From a virus (lineage: Duplodnaviria > Heunggongvirae > Uroviricota > Caudoviricetes), in the IMG/VR virus record IMGVR_UViG_2913147268_000005: a stretch of DNA of 64,000 nt. The stretch is one strand, 5' to 3'. Shown here piece after piece: positions 1 through 59,537 of this stretch. How positions within the stretch are numbered: the stretch's first letter is position 1; every line of letters begins with the position of its first letter. Below the pieces are notes generated by a model, which searched no databases, was not told the DNA's origin, and saw only the letters and a list, made by a program, of their open reading frames with translations. Both the position numbers and the translations under genes were made by a program.

Positions 1-377
1 CGCTGTTCCGGGACGCTTACCATCTGGCGGGAATTGAGATGCCGGATTTGCATCGCGGGGATGACTGGTGGCGTCACGGCCAGAATCTCTATCTTGACAA
101 TATGGAGGCAACGGGTTTTTACCGTGTCCCACTGACAGAGGCGCAGCCTGGCGACGTGCTGCTGTGCTGTTTTGGTTCATCGGTGCCGAATCATGCCGCC
201 ATTTACTGTGGCGACGGCGAGCTGCTGCACCATATTCCTGAACAACTGAGTAAACGAGAGAGGTACACCGACAAATGGCAGCGACGCACACACTCCCTCT
301 GGCGTCACCGGGCATGGCACGCATCTGCCTTTACGGGGATTTGCAACGATTTGGTCGCCGTATCGACCTTCGTGTGA
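1..377 (+). CDS. lambda-like tail assembly protein K, C-terminal part (5' end outside window)
   Basis: Translation ...GFYRVPLTEAQPGDVLLCCFGSSVPNHAAIYCGDGELLHH resembles the gpK NlpC/P60-type C-terminus; followed by I and J in lambda order. Confidence 0.8.
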   Translation, partial: LFRDAYHLAGIEMPDLHRGDDWWRHGQNLYLDNMEATGFYRVPLTEAQPGDVLLCCFGSSVPNHAAIYCGDGELLHHIPEQLSKRERYTDKWQRRTHSLWRHRAWHASAFTGICNDLVAVSTFV

Positions 378-922
378 AAACGGGGGCTGAAGCCATCCGG
401 GCACTGGCCACACAGCTCCCGGCGTTTCGTCAGAAACTGAGCGACGGCTGGTATCAGGTACGGATTGCCGGGCGTGATGCAGGCGAAAATGAATTATCTG
501 CCCGTCTTAATGAGCCGCTGGCAAATGGTGCCGTGATCCACATCGTGCCGCGTCTGGCGGGAGCTAAAAGTGGCGGTGTGTTTCAGGTGGTGCTTGGGGC
601 GGCGCTGATTGCGGTGGCATGGTGGAACCCTGTGGGCTGGCTGGGGGCCGCGGCTGTATCGGGCATGTATGCGGCAGGGGCCAGTATGATCCTGGGCGGA
701 GTGGCGCAGATGCTGGCACCGAAAGCCAGGACGCCCACGGCAGCCAGTACAGATAACGGCAAACAGAACACCTATTTCTCCTCACTGGATAACATGGTTG
801 CCCAGGGCAATGTTCTGCCTGTTCTGTACGGTGAAATGCGCGTGGGGTCTCGCGTGGTTTCTCAGGAGATCAGCACGGCAGACGAAGGGGACGGTGGTCA
901 GGTTGTGGTGATTGGTCGCTGA
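275..922 (+). CDS. lambda-like tail assembly protein I
   Basis: 215-aa ORF MAATHTLPLASPGMARICLYGDLQRFGRRIDL...GDGGQVVVIGR, near-identical in length and sequence to lambda gpI as recalled. Confidence 0.85.
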   Translation: MAATHTLPLASPGMARICLYGDLQRFGRRIDLRVKTGAEAIRALATQLPAFRQKLSDGWYQVRIAGRDAGENELSARLNEPLANGAVIHIVPRLAGAKSGGVFQVVLGAALIAVAWWNPVGWLGAAAVSGMYAAGASMILGGVAQMLAPKARTPTAASTDNGKQNTYFSSLDNMVAQGNVLPVLYGEMRVGSRVVSQEISTADEGDGGQVVVIGR

Positions 923-982
923 TGCAAAATGTTTTATGTGAAACCGCCTGCGGGCGGTTTTGTCATTTATGGAGCGTGAGGA

Positions 983-1745
983 ATGGGTAAAGGCAGCAGT
1001 AAGGGGCATACCCCGCGCGAAGCGAAGGACAACCTGAAGTCCACGCAGCTGCTGAGTGTGATCGATGCCATCAGCGAAGGGCCGGTTGAAGGTCCGGTGG
1101 ATGGATTAAAAAGCGTGCTGCTGAACAGTACGCCGGTGCTGGACACTGAGGGGAATACCAACATCTCCGGTGTCACGGTGGTGTTCCGGGCAGGTGAGCA
1201 GGAGCAGACACCGCCGGAGGGGTTTGAATCCTCCGGCTCCGAGACGGTGCTGGGTACGGAAGTGAAATATGACACGCCGATCACCCGCACCATTACGTCT
1301 GCAAACATCGACCGTCTGCGCTTTACCTTCGGCGTGCAGGCACTGGTGGAAACCACCTCAAAGGGGGACCGGAATCCGTCGGAAGTCCGCCTGCTGGTTC
1401 AGATCCAGCGTAATGGTGGCTGGGTGACGGAAAAAGACATCACCATTAAGGGCAAAACCACCTCGCAGTATCTGGCCTCGGTGGTGGTGGGTAACCTGCC
1501 GCCGCGCCCGTTCAATATACGGATGCGCAGGATGACGCGGGACAGCACCACAGACCAGCTGCAGAACAAAACGCTCTGGTCGTCATACACCGAAATCATC
1601 GATGTGAAACAGTGCTACCCGAACACGGCACTGGTCGGCGTGCAGGTGGATTCGGAGCAGTTCGGCAGCCAGCAGGTGAGCCGTAATTATCATCTGCGCG
1701 GGCGCATTCTGCAGGTGCCGTCGAACTATAACCCGCAGACGCGGC
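983..1745 (+). pseudogene. host-specificity tail tip protein J, N-terminal ~254 codons only
   Basis: MGKGSSKGHTPREAKDNLKSTQLL...NYNPQTRQY matches the lambda J N-terminus; similarity stops near 1745 and the frame runs into unrelated sequence. Confidence 0.85.
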
Positions 1746-2417
1746 AATACAGGCATTCTGTTCGCGGAACATTATCAGGGGCCGTATCGTCCGAAAGATG
1801 CCGGGTATGCGGCGAAGGGCAGTGCACTGAAACAGCATGTGATGGCCCCGCTGATTTCTTACTTTCGTGATGCGCGCGCGGCCCTGGGGATAACGGCAAA
1901 ACAGATTGCAGATGCCACAGGAAAGAAAAACATGGTGTCGCACTGGTTCAGTGCCAGTCAGTGGCAGCTACCGAACGAAAGCGATTATCTGAAATTACAG
2001 TCGCTGTTTGCCCGGGTGGCAGAAGAGAAACATCAGCGCGGTGAACTGGAAAAGCCCCACCACCAGCTGGTGGATACGTATACGTCACTGAACCGGCAGT
2101 ATGTGGAGCTGCAGAGTGAATATAAGCATCTGCGGCGGTATTTTGGTGTGACGGCGCAGGTGCCGTACACGGATGTGTGGACACATAAACCGGTGCAGTT
2201 CTATCCCGGGAAACATCCGTGCGAAAAACCGGCAGAAATGCTGCAGCAGATAATCAGCGCAAGCAGTCGTCCGGGTGACCTGGTTGCAGATTTTTTTATG
2301 GGCTCAGGTTCAACGGTAAAAGCGGCACTGGCGCTCGGGCGTCGTGCGATTGGCGTTGAGCTGGAGACCGGACGTTTTGAGCAGACAGTCAGGGAAGTTC
2401 AGGGTTTAATCGTTTGA
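1746..2417 (+). pseudogene. phage DNA methyltransferase (N6-adenine/N4-cytosine family), 3' portion lacking the N-terminal catalytic motif
   Basis: Open frame from the J junction; C-terminal AdoMet motif DLVADFFMGSGSTVKAALALGRRAIGVELE; no DPPY-type motif present. Confidence 0.6.
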
Positions 2418-2466
2418 AACGGATGAGATTGCAGAATTAATTACGCACCATTATTATTCTGCTCCC

Positions 2467-2542
2467 GGCCCTTTAGCTCAGTGGTGAGAGCGAGCGACTC
2501 ATAATCGCCAGGTCGCTGGTTCAAATCCAGCAAGGGCCACCA
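2467..2542 (+). tRNA. tRNA-Ile2 (anticodon CAU, lysidine type; elongator Met not excluded)
   Basis: 76-nt cloverleaf-compatible sequence GGCCCTTTAGCTCAG...CTCATAA...GGGCCACCA, close to E. coli ileX/ileY as recalled; encoded 3' CCA. Confidence 0.85.
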
Positions 2543-2642
2543 TCACAAACCGCCATTAGCTTATCAGGAAGAGCAGACGACACGATAACAGGGTTGTTGG
2601 TGCGGGGGCGGGTCCCCGATGGCGGTCCATTATCGGTATTCA

Positions 2643-2719
2643 GCGTTGTTAGCTCAGCCGGACAGAGCAATTGCCTTCTAAGCAATCGGTCACTGGTTCG
2701 AATCCAGTACAGCGCGCCA
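2643..2719 (+). tRNA. tRNA-Arg (anticodon UCU)
   Basis: 77-nt GCGTTGTTAGCTCAG...CCTTCTAAG...CAGCGCGCCA; anticodon loop CU-UCU-AA; phage argN/argO-like. Confidence 0.85.
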
Positions 2720-2826
2720 TATTCATTCTTCCAGATTCCTTCCGGCAGAGCCTTATACTGAAATATACCTGGCTCAGGATATTGTTGAAAATATTATATG
2801 TTTGTCAAAAATAAAAGTTCTGTTAA

Positions 2827-3183
2827 GTGTTGATTGAGTGTTTGTTATACGGTCTAATGGTTTTTTCAGCATTAAATATTTATCATTCATATGGTGTGGG
2901 TAGAGTGAATATTGATGAGGCGTCGGGGTGTTTCATCCTTAGGCAGCGTATTGATATAGTCAATGCAGCACGAGCAAAGGCCTTCAGCCGTTTGACAGTT
3001 TTGTTCTGTACTCCTGATCGTCTTTCGGGAAGAGACGTTATTATTCTGAATAGTGATGCTATACAGAGGGTTTGCGATGAGTTCATGGTGGCTAATTCAG
3101 AATTATTTACTCTTGTTCAGGAGTACAACAGAATAGCCAGGACCTGTGGTATGGATGAACTTCGGATTACTCATCTGGGGTAG
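2827..3183 (+). CDS. hypothetical protein in AT-rich moron locus
   Basis: 118-aa ORF, AT-rich, no homology recognised; followed by a terminator. Confidence 0.35.
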   Translation: MLIECLLYGLMVFSALNIYHSYGVGRVNIDEASGCFILRQRIDIVNAARAKAFSRLTVLFCTPDRLSGRDVIILNSDAIQRVCDEFMVANSELFTLVQEYNRIARTCGMDELRITHLG

Positions 3184-3574
3184 ATACATATCTGGATTAT
3201 CACCGGTTACGGTAAAAAGTGATTGCTTACTGTTTTTGTGAATGGCATTGCTGCAGCCGGATAATGTCAGTGCTGGCTGACGGTGTGCTGGTGGCGGGTG
3301 TGGTGGTTGTTGCTTTCCCGTTGCTGAAAAAGAAAACGCCAGACTGTTAGCCGGGTATCAGTTAGCGGGAGAAATTTTTAAATACTTCACAATTCAGGCG
3401 GTTGATTGTTGTCTGGTTTGCGGGGAGTTTGTTAAAAGAAACTGGCATGGTGAATCCCCCTGTGCGGAGGGGCAATCAGCGAGTAGGTATATGGGATAAT
3501 CGCGGATTCAGGTGCTGGTACTGAATTCACCGGGAGGCACCCGGCACCATGCAATGGCACATAGCGCCACTCTC

Positions 3575-3605
3575 CAGCCCCTCTCCGGAGGGGCTGTTTA
3601 TATTG
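3575..3605 (+). terminator. rho-independent terminator
   Basis: 9-bp stem CAGCCCCTC/GAGGGGCTG with tccg loop followed by TTTATATTGATTTT. Confidence 0.6.
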
Positions 3606-3630
3606 ATTTTGTCAGATGTGAGTAAACTCC

Positions 3631-3966
3631 TTATGGACTTTGTTGTTTTAGTCCATAAGGACATATTTGCAGAGTGCAACGGTTATTAAAGCATTCATTC
3701 AATACGTTATCTGTATTTGTAGGGCATTCCTGGCTGTTTTTGATTAAATTCCAGAATGTTTTATTGAATGGTACTACGTTGTAAATGGTTACAGGTAGCA
3801 CTTTGTTATTGAGCATGATGCCTGTGTGAGTCAGTGTAAATATACTTTCAGGAGGTAAGAAAGCATCCGATTGATACCAGATTATTAATTTTATTTTACT
3901 CCATATGACTGAAAAAGATATTCCGCATGATGGCTGGATAACTGTATCAATCACAATCCACTTCAT
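3631..3966 (-). CDS. hypothetical protein in AT-rich moron locus
   Basis: 111-aa ORF, AT-rich; 3' end overlaps a 10-bp inverted repeat CCTTATGGAC/GTCCATAAGG. Confidence 0.3.
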
Positions 3967-4211
3967 TTAGTTTCCTTGTTTATGCCTTGCTGGTGATGTT
4001 CTGAAAAGTATAAATGATATTTTTGATTGTAAACCATAGAGCAGAATTATTTTTCTGATGTTGTTTATTGTTTATTTAAATGCAGGGTGGTTTATATCTC
4101 GTCTTGTAGTTTATCCATGCATATCTGCTTGATGATGAGGTTTTTATTTAAGGTATGGTTTTGTGTTTTTTCTGTATTACATGTCAGGTATTTTAAAGAA
4201 TCATTTTTCAG

Positions 4212-4700
4212 ATGGTGGAAAGAACCATGGCATTTAAACACTATGATGTTGTCAGGGCGGCGTCGCCGTCAGATCTTGCGGAAAAGCTGACACATAAACT
4301 GAAAGAGGGCTGGCAGCCGTTTGGTAGTCCGGTGGCCATAACCCCTTATACCCTGATGCAGGCGATTGCAGCAGAAGGTGATGTGGTCGTCAGTGGTGCA
4401 ACTGAGCCGGAGTGGTACTACGTCATCGTACTGGCCGGGCAATCCAATGCCATGGCTTACGGTGAAGGGCTTCCGCTTCCGGATTCATACGATGCGCCCC
4501 ATCCGCGCATTAAGCAACTGGCCCGTCGTAACACAGTGACTCCCGGTGGTGAAGTATGCGTATTTAACGACATCATTCCTGCTGACCATTGTCTGCATGA
4601 TGTTCAGGATATGAGTACGATTAACCATCCCCGGGCTGACCTGAGCAAAGGGCAGTACGGCTGTGTCGGACAGGGCTTACATATTGCCAAAAAACTGCTT
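4212..4700 (+). pseudogene. nanS: nanS-p (prophage sialate O-acetylesterase) 5' fragment: DUF1737 plus start of SASA/SGNH domain
   Basis: MAFKHYDVVRAASPSDLAEKL... and VLAGQSNAMAYGEGLPLPDSYDAPHPRIKQLARR match the intact copy at 22243; homology stops after ~163 codons. Confidence 0.75.
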
Positions 4701-5334
4701 CCGTGCATTTTTGGTAATATCCGTCAGCGTCAGCGCATTCAGCCCCAGTGTCAGACTGTCTTTTATGACCTGGAATGCCGGGCCAGCCACTCCATTCAGT
4801 TTCGGAGTAACCGTGGCACTGCCGGCGGTGAACACCAGCTCCAGCGTCTGCCAGTCGTTACTGTAATTCCCGAACTCGCCCAACTTTGTGTTTCCTGCTT
4901 TCTTGTGATGCATCAGATTCAGTTTGCCGTCTGTGGTCTGGGTGAAGAACGACATCAGGAACGGGTTACCAGTCCCGGTCATCGCCACGACGTCAGGTAA
5001 CGCTACATCGGTATACAGATAAATTCCCAGACCGAACTGATTGTTGGTCAGTGCGCCTGACAGTCGAAACTTACAGCTCAGTCTGCCACCCCGTGTCAGC
5101 AGGGAGACTGCGTCATCCACCGGGCGCGTCAGGGACCAGGCTTTATTGCTCTGCTTGGTGATCTTAAATACACCATCTGACAACTGAATTCCGCCATTCT
5201 TAATGCTCCAGCCCTGCGCAGCAGCATCTCCGGCTGTCGGCAACAGGGAGATTGTGCGTACGGATGCATCTTCAGACGGCCCCGATGGCGTGTCGCCGCC
5301 GGGCGAGGGTTTGATTTCCGGTGCCTTACCACTA
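4677..5334 (-). pseudogene. nanS: nanS-p 3' fragment (C-terminal domain), inverted relative to the 5' fragment
   Basis: Minus-strand ORF begins SGKAPEIKPSPGGDTPSGP (same motif that ends the 22243 copy) and matches the 41309-41950 copy. Confidence 0.7.
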
Positions 5335-5388
5335 GTCATCGGGCATTATCTGAACATAAAACACTATCAATAAGTTGGAGTCATTACC
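5335..5388 (-). mobile_element. IS1 terminal stub (54 bp)
   Basis: Reverse complement reads GGTAATGACTCCAACTTATTGATAGTGTTTTATGTTCAGATAATGCCCGATGAC, the IS1 terminus as recalled; no further IS1 sequence. Confidence 0.8.
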
Positions 5389-5393
5389 CAAAA

Positions 5394-5804
5394 ATGCACG
5401 CAAAAGAAGAAGGTATCATCAGAGCACTGAAAGAAATTTCAAAGACAGAAAACGAAGTAGCGAAAAAAGCCATAGCAAATAATCATATGGACGTCGCAAC
5501 CCACACACTGATAGTCGCAAGAGTCACGGCAGAAGCAGCCGAAATTATCGCAAAACAGGATGCTGAACTGGCGGTTCTCAGAACACAACCAGTCACCGGA
5601 CTGGATTTGTCTAACACCGGACGCCTTATTTACACAATTGGCTCGGAGCTACAGCGATACACCATTATCGCCGGGTTACAGGATAAATACCTGATCACTC
5701 CTCACCCCATAAGGGAATCAGAAATTCTGACAAATCTCCGCCTGATAGAGCGCTCTCAAGTCGCATTCATTGATGACGCACAGTGCACCGTATTTAACGC
5801 ATAG
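5394..5804 (+). CDS. hypothetical protein, possibly 5'-truncated by the IS1 stub
   Basis: 136-aa ORF starting 3 nt after the IS1 end; frame stays open upstream through the stub. Confidence 0.4.
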   Translation: MHAKEEGIIRALKEISKTENEVAKKAIANNHMDVATHTLIVARVTAEAAEIIAKQDAELAVLRTQPVTGLDLSNTGRLIYTIGSELQRYTIIAGLQDKYLITPHPIRESEILTNLRLIERSQVAFIDDAQCTVFNA

Positions 5805-5827
5805 AGTTACTGGACAAAGGGGGCGCA

Positions 5828-6031
5828 ATGGCAATTAAGCATTTTCCCGTCGTTCGCTTTACCTCCAGAGGGCGCGAATACGAGGTCGACGAACGCCTGA
5901 TTACCACTATCGACAAACATCGTTCGGAAAAGGATGCACACCACATCTACCTCACTGACGGCACTTACTTCTGCGCCACTAATGTGGCGCGGGTAAACCT
6001 TATCCGACAGGTACAGGAGCCACGCAGATGA
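5828..6031 (+). CDS. hypothetical small early protein
   Basis: 67-aa ORF; stop overlaps the next start. Confidence 0.4.
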   Translation: MAIKHFPVVRFTSRGREYEVDERLITTIDKHRSEKDAHHIYLTDGTYFCATNVARVNLIRQVQEPRR

Positions 6032-6294
6032 CCATTCTGGACTACATCGCTACTCATCCGGGGTGTAGCGGCGGAGAGATCGCCGCAGCACTGAATACTC
6101 CAACCACAGCCATTAATGCTGAGTTACGCCAACTTTGGCGCGGCGGCTTAGTCATCAGAACAAACCGCAGCACAGGTGGTCGCGCTCGCAAAACTGGAGG
6201 CCAGGCTTCTTACCACGTAAACCCGATGCCGTTCGGGTGTAGCAATCCACTTACTCACATGTTTAACCAGCTACTGAAGGAAGCCAGAACATGA
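6028..6294 (+). CDS. putative winged-helix DNA-binding protein
   Basis: 88-aa ORF MTILDYIATHPGCSGGEIAAALNTPTTAINAELRQLWRGGLV, HTH-like; translationally coupled to neighbours. Confidence 0.45.
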   Translation: MTILDYIATHPGCSGGEIAAALNTPTTAINAELRQLWRGGLVIRTNRSTGGRARKTGGQASYHVNPMPFGCSNPLTHMFNQLLKEART

Positions 6295-6590
6295 GCACCA
6301 TCAACCACCAGAAGCTACGCGAACTGGCATTTGCCCTGCAACGAATGGCAACACCTCAAAAATTACTGGCATTTCGCGCAATGCTCTCGCCGTCTGCTGC
6401 GCTGGCATTGCTGGATGAGCTGGAGCACGCCAGAACCACGGCTCCTGCCATTCGCCTGACGCTCCATCATGAAATCGCTGATTTCTGCGCGACATTGGAG
6501 GTGCCAGGCGAACCGGAAACGCCGGAAGCAATACAGCAAGAGCTGCTGCAACGTATTGACAAGGTTTTTGATTTTTTTCTGAACCAGTAA
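6291..6590 (+). CDS. hypothetical early protein
   Basis: 99-aa ORF, coupled start/stop overlap. Confidence 0.4.
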   Translation: MSTINHQKLRELAFALQRMATPQKLLAFRAMLSPSAALALLDELEHARTTAPAIRLTLHHEIADFCATLEVPGEPETPEAIQQELLQRIDKVFDFFLNQ

Positions 6591-6711
6591 GAAACCAGAG
6601 CATGCACACACAAAAAAACCGCTTGCCATGCCGCAATCAGTCAGGTTACATTTCCGCTGCACCTCATAAAACGGGTGCCGGGTTTCGCAGCCTGCTGACT
6701 ACACAAGCGCA

Positions 6712-6734
6712 CAACCGCGCCAGCGGTTTTTTTG
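6712..6734 (+). terminator. rho-independent terminator
   Basis: ACCGCGCCAGCGGT hairpin followed by TTTTTTT. Confidence 0.55.
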
Positions 6735-6912
6735 TGCGTACTGTATTGCCACGTTTTTTTCGCGTCAGAATTATGGCGGGGCGTACGGGGCCGACTTCGG
6801 TCGGGCCGGGTTCTTGTGTAGCCGGTACTGCGAACCTCGTACGTCTCGCCACCCACAGTTTCGCAGCTCTGGATGGTGAGTTTTCACAACTTACTACACA
6901 AGGGGCCACACC

Positions 6913-7143
6913 ATGGCAAACCGCAAACAGCACCGCGCTATCGCGGAGCGTCGTCACATCCAGACTGAAATCAACCGCAGACTTTCCCGCGCATCACGCG
7001 TCGCGCAAATCATGCACATCAATATGCTGCATGAGCGCAGCCACGCACTATCAAACATTTATTCCGCCTCTGTTTTCAGCTATCTGGCGGATGATCTGCA
7101 CGAGCTTCAACAGCTCATCCAGCAGCAAAACAAACTCCATTAA
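6913..7143 (+). CDS. hypothetical basic protein
   Basis: 76-aa ORF with AAGGGG SD 8 nt upstream. Confidence 0.4.
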   Translation: MANRKQHRAIAERRHIQTEINRRLSRASRVAQIMHINMLHERSHALSNIYSASVFSYLADDLHELQQLIQQQNKLH

Positions 7144-7215
7144 TTCCTGTTCCGGGCCTTTCCTGCACCTTGCGGCGGGAGGCCTTCGCACATCTGTAAC
7201 AAGAGGATTGCCGCA

Positions 7216-7581
7216 ATGATTCTCGCCAACGACTTTCTTGAATACCTGCTCAATACAGAACGTGATCTTGCCGCTCGCGTGCGTGATCGTTATGACATGT
7301 ACCTGAAATCCCTGCCTGTACCGCAGCTCGCTGACGGAAAGATTGTTATTGATGGTCGCTACATGATTGACAGCCACGAGGGAAATTACAGGCTTTACCG
7401 CATTGAAGGTGGCACCCCGTCCGTTATTGGCATTTACCAGCGCCCATCCTCTGCAATCGTCGATGTGATTGCCGACAGCATCCGCATCACACATCGCCAT
7501 GCCGACACAGAAGACACCGTGCTGGAAATTCAGCGGCTGGCTACAGTCTGCCGCGACACCCTGAATGGCATGACGAAGTAA
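7216..7581 (+). CDS. hypothetical protein upstream of replicase
   Basis: 121-aa ORF immediately 5' of gpA-like gene. Confidence 0.4.
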   Translation: MILANDFLEYLLNTERDLAARVRDRYDMYLKSLPVPQLADGKIVIDGRYMIDSHEGNYRLYRIEGGTPSVIGIYQRPSSAIVDVIADSIRITHRHADTEDTVLEIQRLATVCRDTLNGMTK

Positions 7582-7587
7582 ATCACT

Positions 7588-10410
7588 ATGACGGCAGAGT
7601 ACCTCAGGGACTGGCAACAACCGCGCCACGCAGTGGGGCGTGAAGGAACGGGGATCCCCGCTCCTGAATCCGCGCTTTCCTCCTGGCTGGATGCCTACCG
7701 GGCAGAGAACGAGCGCCGCCAGGAAATGGCTGATGCGGCGTTCTCAGCCACGCCGCTGGGCAACCTGATTAATAAAAGCCTGGACGCACAGGAAAAACAG
7801 GACAAAACCATCACACTGGCAGGAGACGCCAGAAAACAGGCACGTGGCGCGGTGGATGAAGCCATGGCCTCGCTGCGCCTGCTGCCGTCCTATCTGCGCG
7901 ATCCGCTTATTCGCCACCTCTCCTTCCTGCGCAAAAAACAGGAAGCCGATCGCCGGAAAGGCAAAAAGAGCTGGCAGGCGGAACGCTATGCACGCGGAAC
8001 CCTGCGCAAAATATTCGAACGTCTGGATAGCACTGACGGACGCTGGCTGACACCGGGTTATCGCTCCCTTGCCGGACGCGAACGCCTGGACGATTTGCTT
8101 TACCTGCCGCAGCTCAACAAACACCAGATACAGACGCTGGCCACCATGACGGCGGCGATGTTCAGCAGCACCTTCGAAAAACTCTGCGATGGCTTTGGCG
8201 CGACCGATGGCGAGCTGACCATGGATGTAACCCTGAAGGCGTATCAGATGCTGGCCCGCATGGCGTTACACCTGCACGCCATGCCTCCACATTATGACGC
8301 ACTGACAACAGACAAAGACCGGAGGAACGAACCGGACACGGAGCTGCTGCCGGGCGCAATCCTTCGCCTGACCTGTGCGGAATGGTGGAAACGCAAACTG
8401 TGGCTGTTACGTTGCGAGTGGAGAGAAGAACAACTCCGCGCCGCCTGTCTGGTTTCCAGAAAAACATCACCCTATCTGAGCCAGGACGCGTTAAGCGAGT
8501 TTCGCGCACAGCGCGAGAAAACACGCGATTTCCTGAAAAGTTTCATGCTGGAAAATGAAGACGGGTTCACGATTGATCTCGAGACAGTGTATTACGCGGG
8601 AGTAAGTAACCCGGTTCACCGTAAGGCAGAAATGATGGCCACCATGAAGGGACTGGAACTTCTGGCCGAAGCCCGTGGCGACAAAGCGGTGTTTCTGACT
8701 GTCACCTGCCCGTCAAAATACCACGCCACAACGGAGAACGGTCATCCGAATCCCAAATGGAACGGGGCCACAATGCGCGACTCCAGCGATTACCTGGTTA
8801 ACACGTTTTTTGCGGCGGTCCGCAAAAAACTGAACCGCGACGGCCTGCGCTGGTATGGCATCCGCACGGTGGAGCCTCATCATGACGGCACCGTGCACTG
8901 GCATATGATGGTCTTTGCACATCCGGAAGAAATCGACACCATTGTGTCCCATACCCGCGATATTGCCATTCAGGAAGACCGCCACGAGCTGGGCAATGAT
9001 ATTACTCCGCGCTTTAAGGTGGAGTATGTCGACGGCTCAAAAGGCACGCCAACCAGCTACATCGCCACCTACATCGGAAAGAACCTGGACAGCCGCGCCG
9101 TGGATGGCATCGACCCGAAAACGGGCAAGCCACGCGTGGACCACGAAACCGGAAAATCAATGGCCGAGAGCGTGGAGCGCGCCATCGGCTGGGCGCGCCT
9201 TCACCGGGTCCGTCAGTTCCAGTTCTTTGGCATCCCCTCCCGTCAGGTGTGGCGTGAACTGCGCCGCCTTGCCAGCCAGATGGCACGCAATCCGGAAGGC
9301 CCGCAACGGCTGAAAGATGATGCAATGGATGCGGTACTCGCTGCCGCCGATGCCGGGTGTTTTGCCACCTACATTGAAAAACAGGGTGGCGTGCTTGTTC
9401 CACGCAAGGACTACCTGATTCGCACCGCCTACGACCTCGCAGATGAGCTGAACGATTACGGCGAACAGAGCGTACAGATTTACGGGATCTGGTCACCACT
9501 CATCGGGGAATCCTCCCGTGTGTGCACGCATCCGGATAACTGGAAGCTGGTAAGACGTAAACCGGAAGCGGAAGACAGCGCCCGCGAAAATGGTTTTGAC
9601 CTTCAGGGCGGCCCTGCCGCCCCTTGGACTCGTGGCAATAACTGTCCCCGTGTACAGGAAACGGACAACAACGGGACAGAACAGCCGGAAGAACGGCCAG
9701 CACCGTGGCCGCAGCTCCCTGACGGCGTTGAAGTGAACGAATGGATGCGCTCACTGAAACGACACGAACGCCGGGCGCTGATGCGTTCGCTTCGTGACAA
9801 ACAGGCAAAAAACAGCAGCGATGAAATGCAGAGCTGGACACAGAGCCGCAAACAGCAGCGGCCTTTGCCTGATAACCACGAATTACTCGCTAAAGAATGG
9901 CGGGAGTCTGCTGAATCTCTCGGCCTGCATATCGGTGAACAACAGATGCAGCACCTGTTACGGGGCGGCAGTCTGTACGTTGACGGCAGCATCATTGCAC
10001 CGCAGGGATTTGAAATTGTACGCAAACCGGATACCCGCCCGGACAGCCGAATCACGCAGCTCTGGCAGCGCCTGAGCCGTAATCATGGCGTAAGCAGCAC
10101 GGAGATCCGCCATAACCCGGTCGCCAGCTATCTGGCACAGCTGGGGGCATCAGACCCTGAAGCCGCCGCACGCCTGGCATCCACACTTCAGCAGGGCCAG
10201 AACACCATGAAAACACCCGTTACCGTGCTTTCTGACATGCTGCGCGCCATCCGCGACGCAGAGCACGCACAGAGAATCAGTGAAACCACTGAACGCGCCA
10301 GCCGCAAAGCAGACCTGCTGCGGGGTGGCCTGACCAGTGGAAACAAAAAACAGACAGAAACGGGACTTACGAATCCCGTAAATGAGCAAAAAACGCGCAG
10401 CGATATATGA
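7588..10410 (+). CDS. P2 gpA-family rolling-circle replication initiation endonuclease
   Basis: 940-aa ORF with HUH-type motif GTVHWHMMVF and P2 A-like central region; position before the A-to-Q hotspot. Confidence 0.8.
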   Translation: MTAEYLRDWQQPRHAVGREGTGIPAPESALSSWLDAYRAENERRQEMADAAFSATPLGNLINKSLDAQEKQDKTITLAGDARKQARGAVDEAMASLRLLPSYLRDPLIRHLSFLRKKQEADRRKGKKSWQAERYARGTLRKIFERLDSTDGRWLTPGYRSLAGRERLDDLLYLPQLNKHQIQTLATMTAAMFSSTFEKLCDGFGATDGELTMDVTLKAYQMLARMALHLHAMPPHYDALTTDKDRRNEPDTELLPGAILRLTCAEWWKRKLWLLRCEWREEQLRAACLVSRKTSPYLSQDALSEFRAQREKTRDFLKSFMLENEDGFTIDLETVYYAGVSNPVHRKAEMMATMKGLELLAEARGDKAVFLTVTCPSKYHATTENGHPNPKWNGATMRDSSDYLVNTFFAAVRKKLNRDGLRWYGIRTVEPHHDGTVHWHMMVFAHPEEIDTIVSHTRDIAIQEDRHELGNDITPRFKVEYVDGSKGTPTSYIATYIGKNLDSRAVDGIDPKTGKPRVDHETGKSMAESVERAIGWARLHRVRQFQFFGIPSRQVWRELRRLASQMARNPEGPQRLKDDAMDAVLAAADAGCFATYIEKQGGVLVPRKDYLIRTAYDLADELNDYGEQSVQIYGIWSPLIGESSRVCTHPDNWKLVRRKPEAEDSARENGFDLQGGPAAPWTRGNNCPRVQETDNNGTEQPEERPAPWPQLPDGVEVNEWMRSLKRHERRALMRSLRDKQAKNSSDEMQSWTQSRKQQRPLPDNHELLAKEWRESAESLGLHIGEQQMQHLLRGGSLYVDGSIIAPQGFEIVRKPDTRPDSRITQLWQRLSRNHGVSSTEIRHNPVASYLAQLGASDPEAAARLASTLQQGQNTMKTPVTVLSDMLRAIRDAEHAQRISETTERASRKADLLRGGLTSGNKKQTETGLTNPVNEQKTRSDI

Positions 10411-10458
10411 AGCGCGCACAAAACAGGCAAAAACGGGATTTCAGAATCCCGTAAACGA
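10358..10458. promoter_or_regulatory. two 28-bp palindrome-containing direct repeats (parC-like centromere/operator)
   Basis: AAACGGGACTTACGAATCCCGTAAATGA at 10358 and AAACGGGATTTCAGAATCCCGTAAACGA at 10431, each with the ACGGGA...TCCCGT inverted repeat, just upstream of parM. Confidence 0.55.
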
Positions 10459-10486: not shown

Positions 10487-11446
10487 ATGAAAATTTGTAT
10501 CGACGACGGCTCCACCAACATCAAGCTGGCATGGACTGAGAATGGCGAACGCCGCAACGCCATCAGCCCGAACAGCTTCAAGTCGGAATGGTCTGCGCCG
10601 TTCGGTGGCATGCAGCCCGCGAACTACATGCTTGATGGCGTGCGCTATGGTTTTGATCCGGTTAGCGATCGCTTTGTCCAGACGACCGACACGCAATACC
10701 AGTACAGCGATGTGAATGTAATCGCCATTCATCACGCGCTGGTCAAATCAGGCATCACGCCACAGGAGGTGGATGTGGTTGTCACCCTGCCACTGAGCGA
10801 GTATTTCGACACAAACGCACAGCCGGACATGGCCAACATCAACCGCAAAAAAGCGAACGTTATGCGCCCGGTGGAATACCAGAACGGCGAAGCATTCACT
10901 ATCCGTAACGTGCGGGTTATGCCTGAATCCATTCCGGCTGGCTTTAAAGCACTGGCTGACATGAGTCCGTTTGAATCCCTGCTGATTGTGGATTTAGGCG
11001 GAACCACGCTGGATGTGGCAAAGGTTCAAGGGCAACTGGCAGGTATCAGCCAGGTGTTTTGCGATCCACACGTAGGCGTTTCCCTGATGGCCGATGCCGT
11101 ACTGTCGGTGATGGCCACTAACGGTATGCGCACCAGTCACCACATCGCCAATACCATTATCGAACATCGCCATGATGAAGCCTGGCTGCGCCAGCACATC
11201 CACAATGACGCGCATTACGCCAGCCTGATGGCGGTTATTCGTGAAAAGGAAGAAACACTGAAACAACGCGTGATCCGCGCGCTGGCGGTTTTTTCGGGTT
11301 ACGGGCGGGTGATGGTTGTCGGTGGAGGGGCGGAGATTGTGGCACCCGCTATCCGCGAAGTCTGCGGAGTTAATGCGACTTTCATCGCGGACGGGGTGCC
11401 ACAGTTTGCTCTGGTTAATGGGCTGTACGCAATGGACAAGGAGTAA
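10487..11446 (+). CDS. parM: actin-like plasmid segregation ATPase ParM/StbA
   Basis: N-terminus MKICIDDGSTNIKLAW...ISPNSFK and overall match to R1 ParM as recalled. Confidence 0.85.
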   Translation: MKICIDDGSTNIKLAWTENGERRNAISPNSFKSEWSAPFGGMQPANYMLDGVRYGFDPVSDRFVQTTDTQYQYSDVNVIAIHHALVKSGITPQEVDVVVTLPLSEYFDTNAQPDMANINRKKANVMRPVEYQNGEAFTIRNVRVMPESIPAGFKALADMSPFESLLIVDLGGTTLDVAKVQGQLAGISQVFCDPHVGVSLMADAVLSVMATNGMRTSHHIANTIIEHRHDEAWLRQHIHNDAHYASLMAVIREKEETLKQRVIRALAVFSGYGRVMVVGGGAEIVAPAIREVCGVNATFIADGVPQFALVNGLYAMDKE

Positions 11447-11450
11447 ACCA

Positions 11451-11765
11451 ATGACGACACCAACCAGACGGATAAGTTTCTATCTGAAGCCCGCCGCCGT
11501 CAAGAGTGAACAGGAGGCGTGCAATTACCTCGATAGCCTGCCAGCCTCCGAACGCAGCCGCGCGCAACGCGCGGCCTTTCTGGCTGGGCTAGCGCTCATA
11601 AAGCGCAACCCAGCATTTGCCTACTGGATGGCCGAATGGCCAGAGGACAACCTCCCCTTCAATACCGTTAGCATCAAGGAAACATACCAGGATAATCAGC
11701 CTAGCGGAGTTGAATGCAATTTTTATAAAATAAAAAAGAATATTCAGACCTTATTCCCAGAATAA
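11451..11765 (+). CDS. parR: ParR-like centromere-binding adaptor
   Basis: ISFYLKPAAVKSEQEACNYLDSLPASERSRAQRAAFLAGLAL parallels R1 ParR IAFKLNPDV...DSIPQGERSRLNRAALTAGLAL. Confidence 0.7.
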   Translation: MTTPTRRISFYLKPAAVKSEQEACNYLDSLPASERSRAQRAAFLAGLALIKRNPAFAYWMAEWPEDNLPFNTVSIKETYQDNQPSGVECNFYKIKKNIQTLFPE

Positions 11766-11848
11766 TCTGATAATTGTATGTGAACTAATAAAATACAGAC
11801 CAACACATCATTCTGGCACCCTTGCTAACAGGGTGCCAATGTTTCAAA

Positions 11849-12691
11849 TCATGATGAAATTGCCGAAGTTTTTTTATCGTGCTGAAGTACCGCAAATGCC
11901 ATTAAAACCTCAAGAGAATAGCGGCGATAATACTTAACAAAACCATAATAAAATACTCGGGATGCAGCAATACAAAACAAGAGAAGAAAACAAAAAGGTA
12001 ACAGTCTGATATTTATATCTATTAAAAAGGATAGAAGGAGCAGGAACATAAGCAACCAGACTGAAGCGAGAAAAACAAATGTAATGTTTCTACAAAAACC
12101 ATACAAAGCAACATAGTTTTGCATTTTCACCTGATGATTTTTAGAATGTTCATACACATAATGATAAGCAAGGCGAAAAAGATCGCCCCTCAAGCCCTTA
12201 CGTCGATATAGCGTAGATACAGAAAAAACATTTATATAACCATCTCGTATTTGCGGCCAAAAGACTTTAATAAGTATAGAATGCAGTGTGGTTTTATGAT
12301 GTTCTGCTTTATCAAAAGCTGATACAGGAAATAAAAAAACTCCACGAATAAAATTAACTATACTGAACTTAGTATTATGTCGTTTTATTTTCAGGGAGCT
12401 TCTTTTAGAAAACAGATAAATTGAAGGATACCCAAGTTTACTGTTCATGTATTTTTCAATTAAACAGGATGATAGAATAGATATGAAGTGACCTGAAATA
12501 TATGATAGAACGATTAATACCACATATATAAATACACTTATTATTTCTTTATATTTCAGGATATGGTTAAGAATACCTTCTATATAAACAGGGTTAATTT
12601 CAATAGAAAACAAAAAAAGGATAAACAGGAATAACCCACCTGGAATTAGATAGCCCAAAAAGTCATAAAATGAAAACGGATTCTGTGTCAC
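11849..12691 (-). CDS. hypothetical polytopic membrane protein (hotspot cargo gene B)
   Basis: 280-aa ORF, GTG start preceded by AGGGGGAA SD; at least 5 hydrophobic TM-like segments; AT-rich. Confidence 0.7.
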   Translation of the reverse strand: MTQNPFSFYDFLGYLIPGGLFLFILFLFSIEINPVYIEGILNHILKYKEIISVFIYVVLIVLSYISGHFISILSSCLIEKYMNSKLGYPSIYLFSKRSSLKIKRHNTKFSIVNFIRGVFLFPVSAFDKAEHHKTTLHSILIKVFWPQIRDGYINVFSVSTLYRRKGLRGDLFRLAYHYVYEHSKNHQVKMQNYVALYGFCRNITFVFLASVWLLMFLLLLSFLIDINIRLLPFCFLLLFCIAASRVFYYGFVKYYRRYSLEVLMAFAVLQHDKKTSAISS

Positions 12692-12730
12692 ACTTCCCCC
12701 TGTGTTACTTGTAAATTAAAGGGTAAAACA

Positions 12731-13228
12731 TTATTTGTTTTTCCGTAAAGGATTAGCTTTCCATCTTCTTACTAACCATTCGAATTCTTGATATGTAGTA
12801 TCCGAATTAATGCTTTCTCTGATTGCTTTAATTAATGGCTCGGCAATATCATATGTCTCTACAACTGTTGTGTAAGATGTTCTTTTTATCATTTTTTCAT
12901 CATAAATACCTTCACGAATACTTACAGCAACTCGCTCGTAAAAATTTAAAATATATTGAAATTTTCGACGCTCGGCCATTTCTTCATCTGTTATTATGCA
13001 ACCATCACAAGGAAAAACATAAGAACGAAATGATTTGCCTGAACGATGCACTTGTTTCAGGGTATGCAATGACTCTATATATTGCATATCTTGCCGACTC
13101 TCAAAAAGAAAGTTGGCCGTTTGAGTTTTTTTTGCGGTACGCACATTGTAGATAATGGTTCCAATGGCAACCAAAACGCCAAGCAGAACAATAGCATTGC
13201 TGATGATTTGTAGTGTTATTGGGTTCAT
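12731..13228 (-). CDS. hypothetical membrane-anchored protein (hotspot cargo gene A)
   Basis: 165-aa ORF; N-terminal TM helix ITLQIISNAIVLLGVLVAIGTIIY then soluble domain; 39 bp upstream of gene B; AT-rich. Confidence 0.7.
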   Translation of the reverse strand: MNPITLQIISNAIVLLGVLVAIGTIIYNVRTAKKTQTANFLFESRQDMQYIESLHTLKQVHRSGKSFRSYVFPCDGCIITDEEMAERRKFQYILNFYERVAVSIREGIYDEKMIKRTSYTTVVETYDIAEPLIKAIRESINSDTTYQEFEWLVRRWKANPLRKNK

Positions 13229-13245
13229 CCTATTTCATCCATAAA

Positions 13246-13273
13246 AAAGGCGGGGAGCAAATCCCCGCCTCAT
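13246..13273 (-). terminator. rho-independent terminator just upstream of gene A
   Basis: Minus-strand hairpin AGGCGGGGA-tttgc-TCCCCGCCT followed by TTTTTT; preceded by an 11-codon ORF MKKMYDEFDGF. Confidence 0.55.
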
Positions 13274-13425
13274 TAGAGGTCAACGTAGCTTAGAAACCAT
13301 CAAATTCATCATACATTTTTTTCATATCAACCCCCTCATAGAAATCATAACCACGTTTTGTGGTTTTTGTGACGTATAAACTACATCAAAGGCAAGCCAC
13401 GGTCAAATATATAGGCATGCTTACC

Positions 13426-13452
13426 TGCACAAAAGTGCACAAATTTGCACAA
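13426..13452. repeat. three direct TGCACAA repeats at ~10-11 bp spacing (candidate operator)
   Basis: TGCACAAAAGTGCACAAATTTGCACAA; a fourth TGCACAAAAAAA near 13520. Confidence 0.5.
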
Positions 13453-13823
13453 TTTTTTTGAACGACTTTTTACCCTTCCGGCCCGCATGGCGGCTGGATC
13501 CGTCAAGGATCCGTGCGTGCACAAAAAAACGCGCTTTTTCTGCGCGCAGGTGACGGGGGAACAGCCCGCGTTTCAGGGGGTAAATAGCATTCCCTGAACG
13601 ATGTCGCAGAGACACAACAGAATGGCCATATTTCTCACGCTGAGCATGAAAAAGGCGTGAGGGCTTTTGATTTGATGGGGTGAAAGGTAAGGCCGTCAAA
13701 ATCGCACTGAGGCAGCGAGAACATGCAGTCAACGCGGTGGAATTGCGTAAGAGTCTGACCGTCGATGGTGGCGATAAACTGGAAGGCGTCGTGAAATTAT
13801 CTGATTGATACAGGAGCTGGAGA

Positions 13824-56745: not shown

Positions 56746-56857
56746 TTGCCAAAGCAGATGGGCCTGAGGTTTGCTTGTGACCCCAACGCATGAGCAGATG
56801 GCTGGTGGGTGCCCCTAACACCCACCAGCCGCCCATTTACCACAAATAAAAAAGCCT

Positions 56858-57052
56858 TCACTGCGGAAGGCGTCTGTAACAACCGAACTGATAGTCTGCC
56901 AGACCCGCCATAACCAGCTGGGTCAGTATTAACTGGCAGCGTTCGCGTGAAAGGTAAGTATTCTGCGCAATCTCCCCGGCTGTCGCCGGTTCGGTGACGC
57001 TTAATTCATTAAACACCACTCTGGCGGTTTCTGTCATATCCTGCTGTTTCAG
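56858..57052 (-). CDS. hypothetical small phage protein
   Basis: ~64 aa from MLKQQDMTETARVVFNELSVTEPATAGEIA. Confidence 0.35.
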   Translation of the reverse strand: MKQQDMTETARVVFNELSVTEPATAGEIAQNTYLSRERCQLILTQLVMAGLADYQFGCYRRLPQ

Positions 57053-57281
57053 CATGTCTTTTTCCCTTTTCCGGTTAACGTGACACACCAATAACTCTTG
57101 TCGAAAAAGCCAGCAAGCTGAAAGACAGGTATTCACCGCCACCAGCGCGTTTACTGTACTGACGCGATTTCAGTCATAAAAAACCCGCCAGGCGGCGGGG
57201 TGTAAAAAATCTTCTAACGTCAGGCATAAAACGCCCATCGTTAGAGCAAATTTACCACAGATTCGGGAAAAATCAACAACA

Positions 57282-59536: not shown

Positions 59537-59537
59537 G

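What the first reader, a model, noticed from the sequence alone, without database searches (positions are those of the whole stretch)
2723..4211. AT-rich moron locus between phage tRNAs and nanS-p (the stx-equivalent slot) with uncharacterised ORFs
In Stx phages the order is methylase/Q - tRNAs - stxAB - nanS-p - lysis. Here the same slot holds ~1.5 kb of AT-rich DNA with a 118-aa plus-strand ORF (2827-3183) followed by a strong terminator, a 111-aa minus-strand ORF (3631-3966) and a possible 28-codon hydrophobic peptide (MSVLADGVLVAGVVVVAFPLLKKKTPDC, about 3264-3350). No Stx-like sequence is present. Cargo in this slot is expressed from the late promoter and is often virulence- or defence-related.
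Basis: partly seen in the sequence, partly recalled or inferred. Interest (0 to 1): 0.6.

Follow-up and report, generated by a model that had tools for sequence, protein, structure and literature searches.

The report
Prophage cargo slot: iraL plus STnc100
This AT-rich stretch is a real accessory-gene slot of an E. coli lambdoid prophage, but its main contents are already known (the RpoS-stabilising gene iraL and the small RNA STnc100); only two small genes in it have no known function.

Summary
The ORFs, the AT-richness and the flanking tRNAs and nanS-p are all present. The "strong terminator" after the 118-aa ORF is not.

The 111-aa minus-strand ORF is IraL. It is 111/111 identical to the CFT073 protein shown experimentally to bind RssB and stabilise sigma-S. 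[quoted passage not shown]

The 28-codon peptide is the C-terminal part of a 43-aa DUF3927 (P1 TciB-like) membrane peptide.

The 118-aa ORF is a real gene, but its conserved core starts at GTG 2905 (92 aa). dN/dS is 0.27 in frame and about 1 off frame. The model is a helical hairpin. It has no known relatives and was unannotated in all 29 sampled full-length RefSeq rows.

I surveyed 80 related prophage contigs. STnc100 is an invariant pivot. Upstream cargo is ORF92+DUF3927, TerB+DUF3927, stx1AB or nothing. Downstream minus-strand cargo is iraL, AgvB or nothing. So the "stx-equivalent slot" reading holds, "uncharacterised" is only partly right, and iraL uses its own promoter rather than the late promoter.

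The block is 100% identical to many ST131 genomes. Mostly already known; low interest.

The parts
2467..2542 (+). phage tRNA with CAT anticodon (ARAGORN: Met; RefSeq annotates the identical gene as tRNA-Ile, i.e. ileZ-like)
2643..2719 (+). phage tRNA-Arg (TCT); left border of cargo position A
2905..3183 (+). ORF92. It is a small cytoplasmic helical-hairpin protein of unknown function.
   Evidence: phrog_2873 E 1.2e-69. Comparison with the 68%-identical homologue in L009 shows no indels, the same stop, and dN/dS 0.27 in frame against 1.18 and 0.88 off frame. The upstream extension is not kept in frame in homologues. AF2 pLDDT 84.6, helices 3-35 and 50-81. No PDB, Pfam, NCBIfam or PADLOC match.
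3219..3350 (+). It has one hydrophobic helix (VLADGVLVAGVVVVAFPLL) followed by KKK. It is P1 TciB-like.
   Evidence: Pfam PF13064 E 9.6e-27, 93 bits against cutoff 25. phrog_1470 'TciB-like'. RefSeq WP_023142244.1.
3416..3605 (+). STnc100 sRNA gene (PasD / EcOnc27 relatives); the invariant pivot of the slot
   Evidence: RF02076 132.4 bits, E 4e-30, model 1-206. Present in 79 of 79 evaluable related loci. Zero differences from CFT073.
3575..3596 (+). intrinsic terminator hairpin plus T-run, the 3' end of STnc100; iraL converges on it from the other side
   Evidence: Rfam structure line
3631..3966 (-). iraL: RssB anti-adaptor of the IraM family (111 aa)
   Evidence: NCBIfam NF007393 162 bits against cutoff 121. 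111/111 identical to CFT073 C_RS06710 = c1429 = IraL. 62% identical to K-12 IraM. PDB 8TWD IraM E 9e-32.
3967..4035 (-). iraL 5'UTR (3967-3999, SD AAGGAA), transcription start at 3999, and the sigma-70 promoter region (TATACT at 4007-4012, TTTACA at 4028-4033)
   Evidence: [quoted passage not shown] The hexamers were read directly from the sequence. There are 3 SNPs against CFT073 here, at 3969, 4000 and 4027.
4036..4226 (.). AT-rich (about 31% GC) spacer between the iraL promoter and the nanS-p start
4227..4704 (+). 5' part of nanS-p (DUF1737 + SASA carbohydrate esterase); right border of the slot. It is cut at 4704 in this window.

Best explanation
The region is the accessory ('moron') slot between the phage tRNAs and nanS-p in the late region of a lambdoid prophage of the ST131/CFT073 type. 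It holds two independent cargo positions on either side of a conserved sRNA gene.

Position B (between STnc100 and nanS-p, minus strand) holds iraL.
- iraL is transcribed against the late operon from its own sigma-70 promoter, so it is made in the lysogen.
[quoted passage not shown] This was shown in CFT073 for the identical protein and is inferred here.

The pivot is STnc100.
- It is an Hfq-associated prophage sRNA (the family is shown; its targets here are unknown).
- Its strong terminator probably also insulates nanS-p and the lysis genes from transcription of upstream cargo in the lysogen (inferred).

Position A (between tRNA-Arg and STnc100, plus strand) is where stx sits in toxin phages.
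- It holds a real 92-aa helical-hairpin protein gene and a 43-aa DUF3927 membrane peptide.
- Both are of unknown function. They are probably co-transcribed and end at the STnc100 terminator (inferred).
For: Identity of the features:
- iraL: NCBIfam match above cutoff; 100% protein identity to CFT073 IraL; the mapped mRNA 5' end is present at 3999.
- iraL function: experiments in PMC4045071. Expression data: up in a fur mutant (PMC7157518) and at 37 C (PMC12890032; links c1429 to C_RS06710).
- STnc100: full-length Rfam hit and terminator.
- DUF3927: Pfam E 1e-26.
- ORF92: dN/dS 0.27, no indels at 68% nucleotide identity, conserved stop. Length-conserved relatives of 91-95 aa occur in E. coli and Citrobacter.

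Modularity, from 80 related prophage contigs:
- STnc100 is present in 79 of 79 evaluable loci.
- Position A holds ORF92+DUF3927 (26 loci), DUF3927 alone (12), TerB+DUF3927 (5), stx1AB (1), or nothing (35).
- Position B holds iraL (46), AgvB on the minus strand (8), or neither (25; about half of these have a second STnc100 copy instead).

Distribution:
- The whole block is 100% identical in many ST131 genomes and 97.5% identical in CFT073.
- iraL is in 1446 of 5426 complete E. coli genomes and ORF92 is in 1186.
Against: - Nothing here measures expression or function in this strain.
- The window's iraL promoter and 5'UTR differ from CFT073 at 3969, 4000 and 4027, so expression could differ.
- No convincing promoter was found for ORF92/DUF3927/STnc100. 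Only 9/12 consensus matches were seen, no more than in shuffles.
- On the minus strand the STnc100 hairpin has no U-run, so its role as the iraL terminator is unproven.
- The 43-aa DUF3927 lacks the first of the two hydrophobic helices seen in the TerB-linked 54-aa versions and may be a remnant.
- The survey is biased: it uses the 80 best matches to this nanS-p allele out of at least 596.
Confidence: 0.85

Rival explanations
1. The plus-strand genes (ORF92, DUF3927) are true late-operon cargo. They are silent in the lysogen and made only after induction, through Q-antiterminated transcription from pR', as Stx2 is. They would act during lytic growth, for example in lysis timing, membrane effects or superinfection exclusion.
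For: They have the same orientation as Q, the tRNAs, nanS-p and the lysis genes in intact copies. They occupy the stx position. No convincing promoter of their own was found. DUF3927 is a small membrane peptide.
Against: No expression data exist. The composition is moron-like. Only one deposited phage genome carries ORF92, against 22% of E. coli chromosomes, which fits a lysogen-side role at least as well. This rival is compatible with the main explanation for iraL and STnc100.
Confidence: 0.3
2. The 2827-3183 ORF is not a gene. It is a chance ORF in AT-rich spacer DNA, which would explain why RefSeq leaves it unannotated.
For: PGAP annotates nothing there in all 29 sampled full-length rows, nor in CFT073 or strain 4/1-1. 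There is no Pfam or NCBIfam family. The Shine-Dalgarno sequence is weak. The N-terminal 26 codons are not conserved in frame.
Against: In-frame dN/dS is 0.27, against 1.18 and 0.88 in the other frames. Differences by codon position are 23/22/43. There are no indels over 279 nt at 68% identity. Homologues of 91-95 aa down to about 35% identity keep the motifs AFS-L-V-TPDR and AN-EL-LV-YN. The AF2 model is confident from only 7 sequences. The ORF matches PHROG 2873.
Confidence: 0.07
3. The region is decayed, functionless intergenic or prophage-remnant DNA.
For: In this window the block is detached from Q and from the lysis genes, and nanS-p is truncated.
Against: The detachment is an artefact of how the window is put together, because the missing prophage pieces lie elsewhere in the window. 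All four features are intact and full length. iraL and STnc100 show 0 differences from CFT073 over 551 nt, while neighbouring spacers differ by 1-3%. The block is conserved in hundreds of genomes.
Confidence: 0.02
4. DUF3927 and STnc100 form a type I toxin-antitoxin-like pair, with a small hydrophobic toxic peptide controlled by the adjacent sRNA.
For: A small hydrophobic peptide gene lies next to an sRNA gene, and the two co-occur in many loci.
Against: STnc100 lies downstream on the same strand, so it is not antisense. RNAduplex of STnc100 against the DUF3927, ORF92, iraL and nanS-p initiation regions is no better than shuffles (z = 0.1-1.2). STnc100 occurs without DUF3927 in 36 of 79 evaluable loci. 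Elsewhere DUF3927 is translationally coupled to TerB.
Confidence: 0.04

Closest known systems
IraL of uropathogenic E. coli CFT073 (c1429, potB-island prophage; Hryckowian et al. 2014, PMC4045071)
   Same: The protein is identical (111/111). The flanking genes are the same: DUF3927, STnc100 and nanS-p/DUF1737. The mRNA 5' end sequence is the same at 31/32 positions. The whole module is 97.5% identical.
   Different: There are three SNPs in the promoter and 5'UTR (3969, 4000, 4027). CFT073 has three tRNAs and an IS200 upstream, and its nanS-p is a remnant.
IraM of E. coli K-12 (b1160, beside the e14 prophage; PDB 8TWD) and RssC of Salmonella
   Same: Same family (NCBIfam NF007393). 62% identity over 107 aa. 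Same target, RssB (literature).
   Different: According to PMC4045071, IraM is induced by Mg2+ starvation and contacts both RssB domains. IraL acts in log phase and contacts only the N-terminal domain. The genomic context also differs.
STnc100 (Rfam RF02076), with EcOnc27/sRNA103 downstream of stx2B and the related PasD sRNAs
   Same: Full-length match to the covariance model, with terminator. Same position, immediately downstream of the slot cargo and upstream of the sialate esterase gene (PMC12370729, PMC12711010, bioRxiv 10.64898/2026.05.13.724894).
   Different: Here iraL is inserted between the sRNA and nanS-p. The 5' (seed-side) sequence differs from the Stx-phage copies, which are 71-84% identical. 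Targets are unknown.
The stx locus of Stx-converting lambdoid phages (933W, Sp5, Stx1 phages)
   Same: Same slot and backbone: Q - (methylase) - tRNAs - cargo - STnc100 - nanS-p - lysis genes. L085 has stx1AB there, next to a nanS-p that is at least 94% identical.
   Different: No RIP or SLT_beta domain is present. The cargo here is ORF92+DUF3927, plus iraL on the other side of the sRNA.
P1 tciA-tciB (TerB + DUF3927) pair and the TerB-DUF3927 cassettes of other lambdoid prophages
   Same: DUF3927 family membership. The C-terminal half (SRIMSVLADGVLV...) is shared with the 54-aa peptides that follow TerB in L082, L089 and L090.
   Different: There is no TerB here; ORF92 takes its place. The peptide lacks the first hydrophobic helix, and there is a 35-nt gap instead of the 4-nt overlap.
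AgvB (anti-GcvB sRNA, RF02702)
   Same: It occupies the same place and strand as iraL, between STnc100 and nanS-p, converging on the STnc100 3' end (L082 5792-5853, minus strand).
   Different: It is an sRNA sponge rather than a protein gene. It is absent from the window (E-value threshold 1).

Membership tests
IraM/IraL RssB anti-adaptors | Sequence match to the curated family model above its cutoff | tested here: met
   NF007393: 162 bits against cutoff 121, residues 1-110 of 111. PDB IraM 8TWD E 9e-32.
IraM/IraL RssB anti-adaptors | Is the IraL type specifically (at least 95% identical to CFT073 iraL, per PMC4045071) rather than IraM | tested here: met
   111/111 identical to CFT073 C_RS06710 = c1429. 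Only 62% identical to K-12 IraM.
IraM/IraL RssB anti-adaptors | Own sigma-70 promoter and the mapped iraL transcription start | tested here: met
   The published 32-nt mRNA 5' end is found at 3968-3999(-) with 1 mismatch and none in shuffles. TATACT and TTTACA lie upstream (read). Promoter activity itself was not measured.
IraM/IraL RssB anti-adaptors | Binds RssB and stabilises sigma-S | not testable with these tools
   Shown for the identical protein in CFT073 (PMC4045071); inferred here.
STnc100 sRNA (RF02076) | Covariance-model score at or above the gathering score, full length | tested here: met
   132.4 bits against 47, model 1-206/206, not truncated.
STnc100 sRNA (RF02076) | Rho-independent terminator at the 3' end | tested here: met
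   3575-3596: 9-bp stem, 7 G-C pairs, T-run.
STnc100 sRNA (RF02076) | Expressed and Hfq-bound RNA | not testable with these tools
   Reported for relatives (EcOnc27/sRNA103, cited in PMC12711010; detection in OMVs, PMC12370729).
DUF3927 (PF13064; P1 TciB-like) | Pfam match above the gathering score | tested here: met
   93.2 bits against 25, E 9.6e-27. phrog_1470 E 1e-12.
DUF3927 (PF13064; P1 TciB-like) | Paired with an upstream TerB (TciA-like) gene, as in P1 and in L082/L089/L090 | tested here: not met
   No TerB is present in the window. ORF92 precedes the peptide with a 35-nt gap.
Moron (Hendrix-type accessory cassette in a lambdoid late operon) | Present or absent between backbone genes that are adjacent in related phages | tested here: met
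   10 related loci have tRNA - STnc100 - nanS-p with nothing else. Others carry different cargo.
Moron (Hendrix-type accessory cassette in a lambdoid late operon) | Base composition unlike the backbone | tested here: met
   GC 0.31-0.46 against 0.51-0.63.
Moron (Hendrix-type accessory cassette in a lambdoid late operon) | Own promoter and own terminator | tested here: inconclusive
   iraL has a promoter according to the literature, but there is no U-run after the hairpin on its strand. For ORF92/DUF3927 the terminator is that of STnc100, and no convincing promoter was found.
Shiga toxin locus | RIP (A subunit) and SLT_beta (B subunit) domains | tested here: not met
   No such Pfam hits in the window ORFs. 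They are found in L085 as a positive control.
Known anti-phage defence systems (PADLOC) | Match to any PADLOC model | tested here: not met
   0 families for ORF92, DUF3927 and IraL at E up to 0.1.

The most novel reading that the evidence does not exclude
ORF92 (2905-3183) is an overlooked, functional lysogenic-conversion or host-modulating protein.
- It is a 92-aa helical hairpin under purifying selection.
- It is present in about 22% of complete E. coli genomes, exactly where toxin phages carry stx.
- It was unannotated in all 29 sampled full-length RefSeq rows and has no known relatives.
- It may act by binding a host protein, as small anti-adaptor or anti-activator proteins do, perhaps together with the DUF3927 peptide.

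A second, linked reading is that the STnc100 gene is the fixed recombination pivot around which two cargo positions are exchanged.
Probability: 0.25. Interest if true: 0.45.

Novelty: already known. Interest (0 to 1): 0.2.

Why it matters
iraL raises RpoS during growth and is enriched in uropathogenic E. coli and Shigella. Its presence in an ST131-type prophage is relevant to stress tolerance in a pandemic lineage, but this is already published knowledge.

Two points are modestly new:
1. Anatomy. The stx slot is really two cargo positions around an invariant sRNA gene. iraL and AgvB are alternatives on one side. stx, TerB+DUF3927 and ORF92+DUF3927 are alternatives on the other.
2. Annotation. 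A 92-aa gene with a clear selection signature, found in more than a thousand complete genomes, was unannotated in every RefSeq row sampled.

Neither point changes current understanding. Both are cheap to follow up.

Tried and rejected
- Terminator after the 118-aa ORF: none found.
- Function of ORF92:
  - Pfam, NCBIfam and PADLOC gave nothing.
  - PDB by sequence profile: best E 0.41.
  - Foldseek against PDB gave only generic helical hairpins, best E 0.24. The afdb50 library was unavailable.
  - HMMER against 1.84 billion cluster representatives found only 21 proteins, all small hypotheticals.
  - tblastn of three family members against 50,697 phage records found only mEp460_ev081.
- Context of ORF92 homologues:
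  - One lineage sits after an AraC-type regulator in the same prophage slot (L009).
  - Another sits on IncF plasmids near fimbrial genes.
  - There is no consistent partner, so no functional inference was drawn.
- STnc100 pairing with local mRNAs (ORF92, DUF3927, iraL, nanS-p initiation regions): no better than shuffles. The type I TA idea was dropped.
- PhoP and Fur boxes in the iraL promoter: by eye, only a GTTTA-TT-GTTTA with the wrong spacing and an 11/19 Fur-box match. Not pursued.
- Literature on TciB and on CFT073 locus tags c1426-c1429: the searches returned noise. The CFT073 expression table skips ORF92 and DUF3927.
- 'Truncated prophage remnant' reading of the window: rejected, because the other pieces of the same prophage lie elsewhere in the window.
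Full report
**1. What is in the sequence**

- plus-strand 2827-3183 (118 aa, GTG start);
- minus-strand 3631-3966 (111 aa);
- a plus-strand ORF 3219-3350 (43 aa, GTG start) that contains the quoted 28-aa peptide from ATG 3264.

ARAGORN and Rfam find tRNA(CAT) at 2467-2542 and tRNA-Arg(TCT) at 2643-2719. A DUF1737 ORF, the N-terminus of the nanS-p esterase, starts at 4212/4227. GC falls to 0.31-0.46 over 2701-3300 and 3601-4350, against 0.51-0.63 outside.

One detail is wrong. There is no terminator after the 118-aa ORF. The pattern scan finds none between 3184 and 3574, and 3170-3270 folds no better than shuffled sequence (z = 0.12).

This is a full-length STnc100 sRNA gene at 3416-3605 (RF02076, 132.4 bits against a gathering score of 47).

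**2. The minus-strand ORF is iraL**

- It matches NCBIfam NF007393 (anti-adapter protein IraM) at 162 bits, above the cutoff of 121.
- It is 62% identical to K-12 IraM.
- It hits the solved IraM chain 8TWD.
- It is 111/111 identical to CFT073 C_RS06710 (WP_000871291.1, old tag c1429) in the potB-island prophage.

That CFT073 protein is IraL. Hryckowian et al. [quoted passage not shown]

Their 5'-RACE sequence for the iraL mRNA start is ACATCACCAGCAAGGCATAAACAAGGAAACCA. It matches the window's minus strand at 3968-3999 with one mismatch, and never matches in shuffles. This puts the transcription start at 3999. TATACT (4007-4012) and TTTACA (4028-4033) lie upstream, and an AAGGAA Shine-Dalgarno sequence lies before the ATG.

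Later papers report iraL up in a fur mutant (PMC7157518) and at 37 C against 23 C (PMC12890032).

iraL with its promoter is in 1446 of 5426 complete E. coli genomes. So this ORF is neither uncharacterised nor dependent on the late promoter, since it points against late transcription.

**3. The small peptide**

- The 43-aa ORF matches Pfam DUF3927 (E 9.6e-27) and the PHROG labelled 'TciB-like'. RefSeq annotates it.
- It has one hydrophobic helix followed by KKK.
- In other prophages of the survey, a 54-55-aa DUF3927 with two hydrophobic helices follows a TerB-domain gene with a 4-nt overlap (L082, L089, L090). This resembles P1 tciA-tciB.
- The window's version shares only the second half (SRIMSVLADGVLV...), so it may be a shortened form.
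- Its function is unknown.

**4. The 118-aa ORF is a real gene of 92 aa**

Evidence that it is coding:
- It matches PHROG 2873 (E 1e-69), but only from residue 11.
- The word-indexed search found 21 proteins, including a lineage that is 55-60% identical.
- I aligned the DNA of the window with that lineage (L009, L010, L005). The region from GTG 2905 to the stop aligns without any indel at 68% identity. The sequence upstream of 2905 needs frame-breaking gaps, or is replaced by an IS element.
- Nei-Gojobori dN/dS is 0.27 in frame (dS 1.07, dN 0.29), against 1.18 and 0.88 in the other two frames. Differences by codon position are 23, 22 and 43.
- An exhaustive HMMER search of 1.84 billion cluster representatives found only 21 proteins. 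These include 91-95-aa relatives from E. coli and Citrobacter that keep the motifs AFS-L-V-(Y/F)-TPDR and AN-EL-LV-YN.

Structure and function:
- AlphaFold2 gives a confident two-helix hairpin with a short beta turn (pLDDT 84.6, pTM 0.70).
- Foldseek against PDB returns only generic hairpins (best E 0.24).
- The sequence profile against PDB, and Pfam, NCBIfam and PADLOC, give nothing.

Distribution and annotation:
- The DNA is in 1186 of 5426 complete genomes. All 29 sampled full-length RefSeq rows show no annotated feature there.
- GenBank submitters occasionally call it 'hypothetical protein', as 92 or 108 aa.
- Only one deposited phage (mEp460_ev081) carries it.
- Homologues next to an AraC-type regulator (L009) and on IncF plasmids near fimbrial genes give no consistent functional clue.

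**5. The slot**

In intact copies the order is Q - methylase - tRNAs - this block - nanS-p - holin - lysozyme (strain 4/1-1; CFT073).

I fetched 80 IMG/VR contigs whose nanS-p N-terminus is at least 93% identical to the window's. I mapped the features by blastn and confirmed a subset with Rfam and Pfam. STnc100 is present in all 79 loci with enough upstream sequence.

| Position | Cargo | Loci |
|---|---|---|
| A: tRNA-Arg to STnc100 | ORF92 + DUF3927 | 26 |
| A | DUF3927 alone | 12 |
| A | TerB + DUF3927 | 5 |
| A | stx1A + stx1B (L085; RIP and SLT_beta domains; STnc100 79 nt after stx1B) | 1 |
| A | nothing | 35 |
| B: STnc100 to nanS-p, minus strand | iraL | 46 |
| B | AgvB sRNA | 8 |
| B | neither (about half of these have a second, 70%-identical STnc100 copy instead) | 25 |

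Two loci also carry an IS3-family insertion between two STnc100 copies.

The window's architecture is the commonest (24 loci, plus one with the IS insertion). This supports the 'stx-equivalent slot' idea directly. It also agrees with papers placing STnc100 (EcOnc27) just downstream of stx2B and placing PasD/STnc100 upstream of the sialate esterase gene (PMC12370729, PMC12711010, bioRxiv 10.64898/2026.05.13.724894).

The sample is biased towards this nanS-p allele, so the proportions are not population estimates.

Against CFT073, STnc100 and iraL show 0 differences over 551 nt. The spacers and the iraL-nanS intergenic region differ by 1-3%.

**6. How it most likely works**

Shown elsewhere and inferred here: in the lysogen, iraL is transcribed from its own promoter. 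IraL sequesters RssB, so sigma-S escapes ClpXP.

STnc100 belongs to an Hfq-associated prophage sRNA family with unknown targets in this lineage. By inference, its terminator ends the plus-strand cargo transcript and shields nanS-p and the lysis genes from it unless Q antitermination is active.

ORF92 and DUF3927 are real but of unknown role. Whether they are made in the lysogen or only after induction is open. No promoter better than chance was found. STnc100 shows no above-chance pairing with any local initiation region, so a toxin-antitoxin reading was dropped.

**7. Context caveat**

Block 1753-4704 is 100% identical to many ST131 chromosomes. The joins at 1752/1753 (tail gene J to mid-methylase) and at 4704/4705 occur in none of the 5426 complete genomes.

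Blasting the intact ST131 prophage segment (L001) against the window shows its pieces scattered and flipped:

| L001 segment | Window position |
|---|---|
| 1-4607 (Q region) | 61351-56746, reversed |
| 5031-7982 | 1753-4704 |
| 8668-9298 (nanS-p 3' part) | 5334-4704, inverted |
| 9243-10433 | 41424-40234, reversed |
| 10747-13489 | 39993-37251, reversed |

The gaps fall in repeated segments. The window therefore looks like draft contigs joined end to end, not a biological remnant. The missing Q gene and the truncated nanS-p are artefacts of that.

**8. Verdict**

The locus is an already known module (iraL, STnc100, DUF3927) shared by ST131, CFT073 and many others.

The residual new points are the unannotated 92-aa gene and the two-sided cargo architecture around STnc100.

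Noticed in passing
window 1-1752 | 1753-4704 | 4705-5334 | 5334 onward; also 37251-41424 and 56746-61351: The window is a scrambled mosaic of one ST131-type prophage. Pieces of the intact region (L001) lie at 61351-56746, 1753-4704, 5334-4704 (inverted), 41424-40234 and 39993-37251, with gaps at repeated segments. The joins at 1752/1753 and 4704/4705 are in none of the 5426 complete E. coli genomes. It looks like concatenated draft contigs.
   Followed up: partly
window 4677-5339 (-): The 220-aa minus-strand ORF with a DUF6645 hit is the C-terminal part of nanS-p lying inverted next to its own 5' part. It is 100% identical to L001 8668-9298. The 262-aa ORF 4212-5000 is a chimera that reads across the join.
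   Followed up: yes
window about 5334-5388: An isolated terminal fragment of IS1, about 55 bp, whose sequence matches the IS1 inverted-repeat end. In three ST131 genomes a whole IS1A sits next to the sequence that follows. This is typical of a contig edge.
   Followed up: partly
window 3435-3560 (-): RefSeq annotates a partial 'hypothetical protein' pseudogene on the strand opposite STnc100 in ST131 and CFT073. It lies entirely inside the sRNA gene and is probably a spurious call.
   Followed up: partly
L082 5792-5853 (-), L089 and L090 likewise; L085 3479-3538 (-): In related prophages the anti-GcvB sRNA AgvB sits exactly where iraL sits here. It is between STnc100 and nanS-p, on the minus strand, abutting the STnc100 3' end. 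iraL and AgvB look like alternative cargo at one site.
   Followed up: partly
L043 811-1001 and 1279-1488; L052 5101-5291 and 5569-5778; L025 4722-4915 and 5191-5379: Many related prophages carry two tandem STnc100 genes that are about 70% identical to each other. Both score 132-165 bits, and no ORF lies between them. In L015 and L046 an IS3-family element lies between the copies.
   Followed up: partly
L009 3969-4694 and 4784-5062; L012/L013 4501-4776: A diverged ORF92 homologue follows an AraC-type (HTH_18) regulator gene in the same prophage slot. A more distant one (91 aa) is on IncF plasmids of pig E. coli, next to fimbrial usher/subunit genes and IS elements.
   Followed up: partly
window 2467-2542: The CAT-anticodon tRNA is called Met by ARAGORN. 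RefSeq annotates the same gene as tRNA-Ile (lysidine-modified, ileZ-like), as in Stx phages.
   Followed up: no
window 5389-10410: After the IS1 fragment comes a run of small plus-strand ORFs and a 940-aa ORF (7588-10410). In ST131 genomes this stretch lies about 470 kb from the prophage and is annotated as MarR-family/hypothetical proteins. It looks like a separate integrative element or satellite and was not examined.
   Followed up: no
window 3969, 4000, 4027: Three SNPs separate this iraL promoter/5'UTR from CFT073's, one of them right next to the putative -35 hexamer. PMC4045071 mentions a -35 point mutation in the second iraL copy of ST131 strain JJ1886. Whether this is that allele was not checked.
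   Followed up: no
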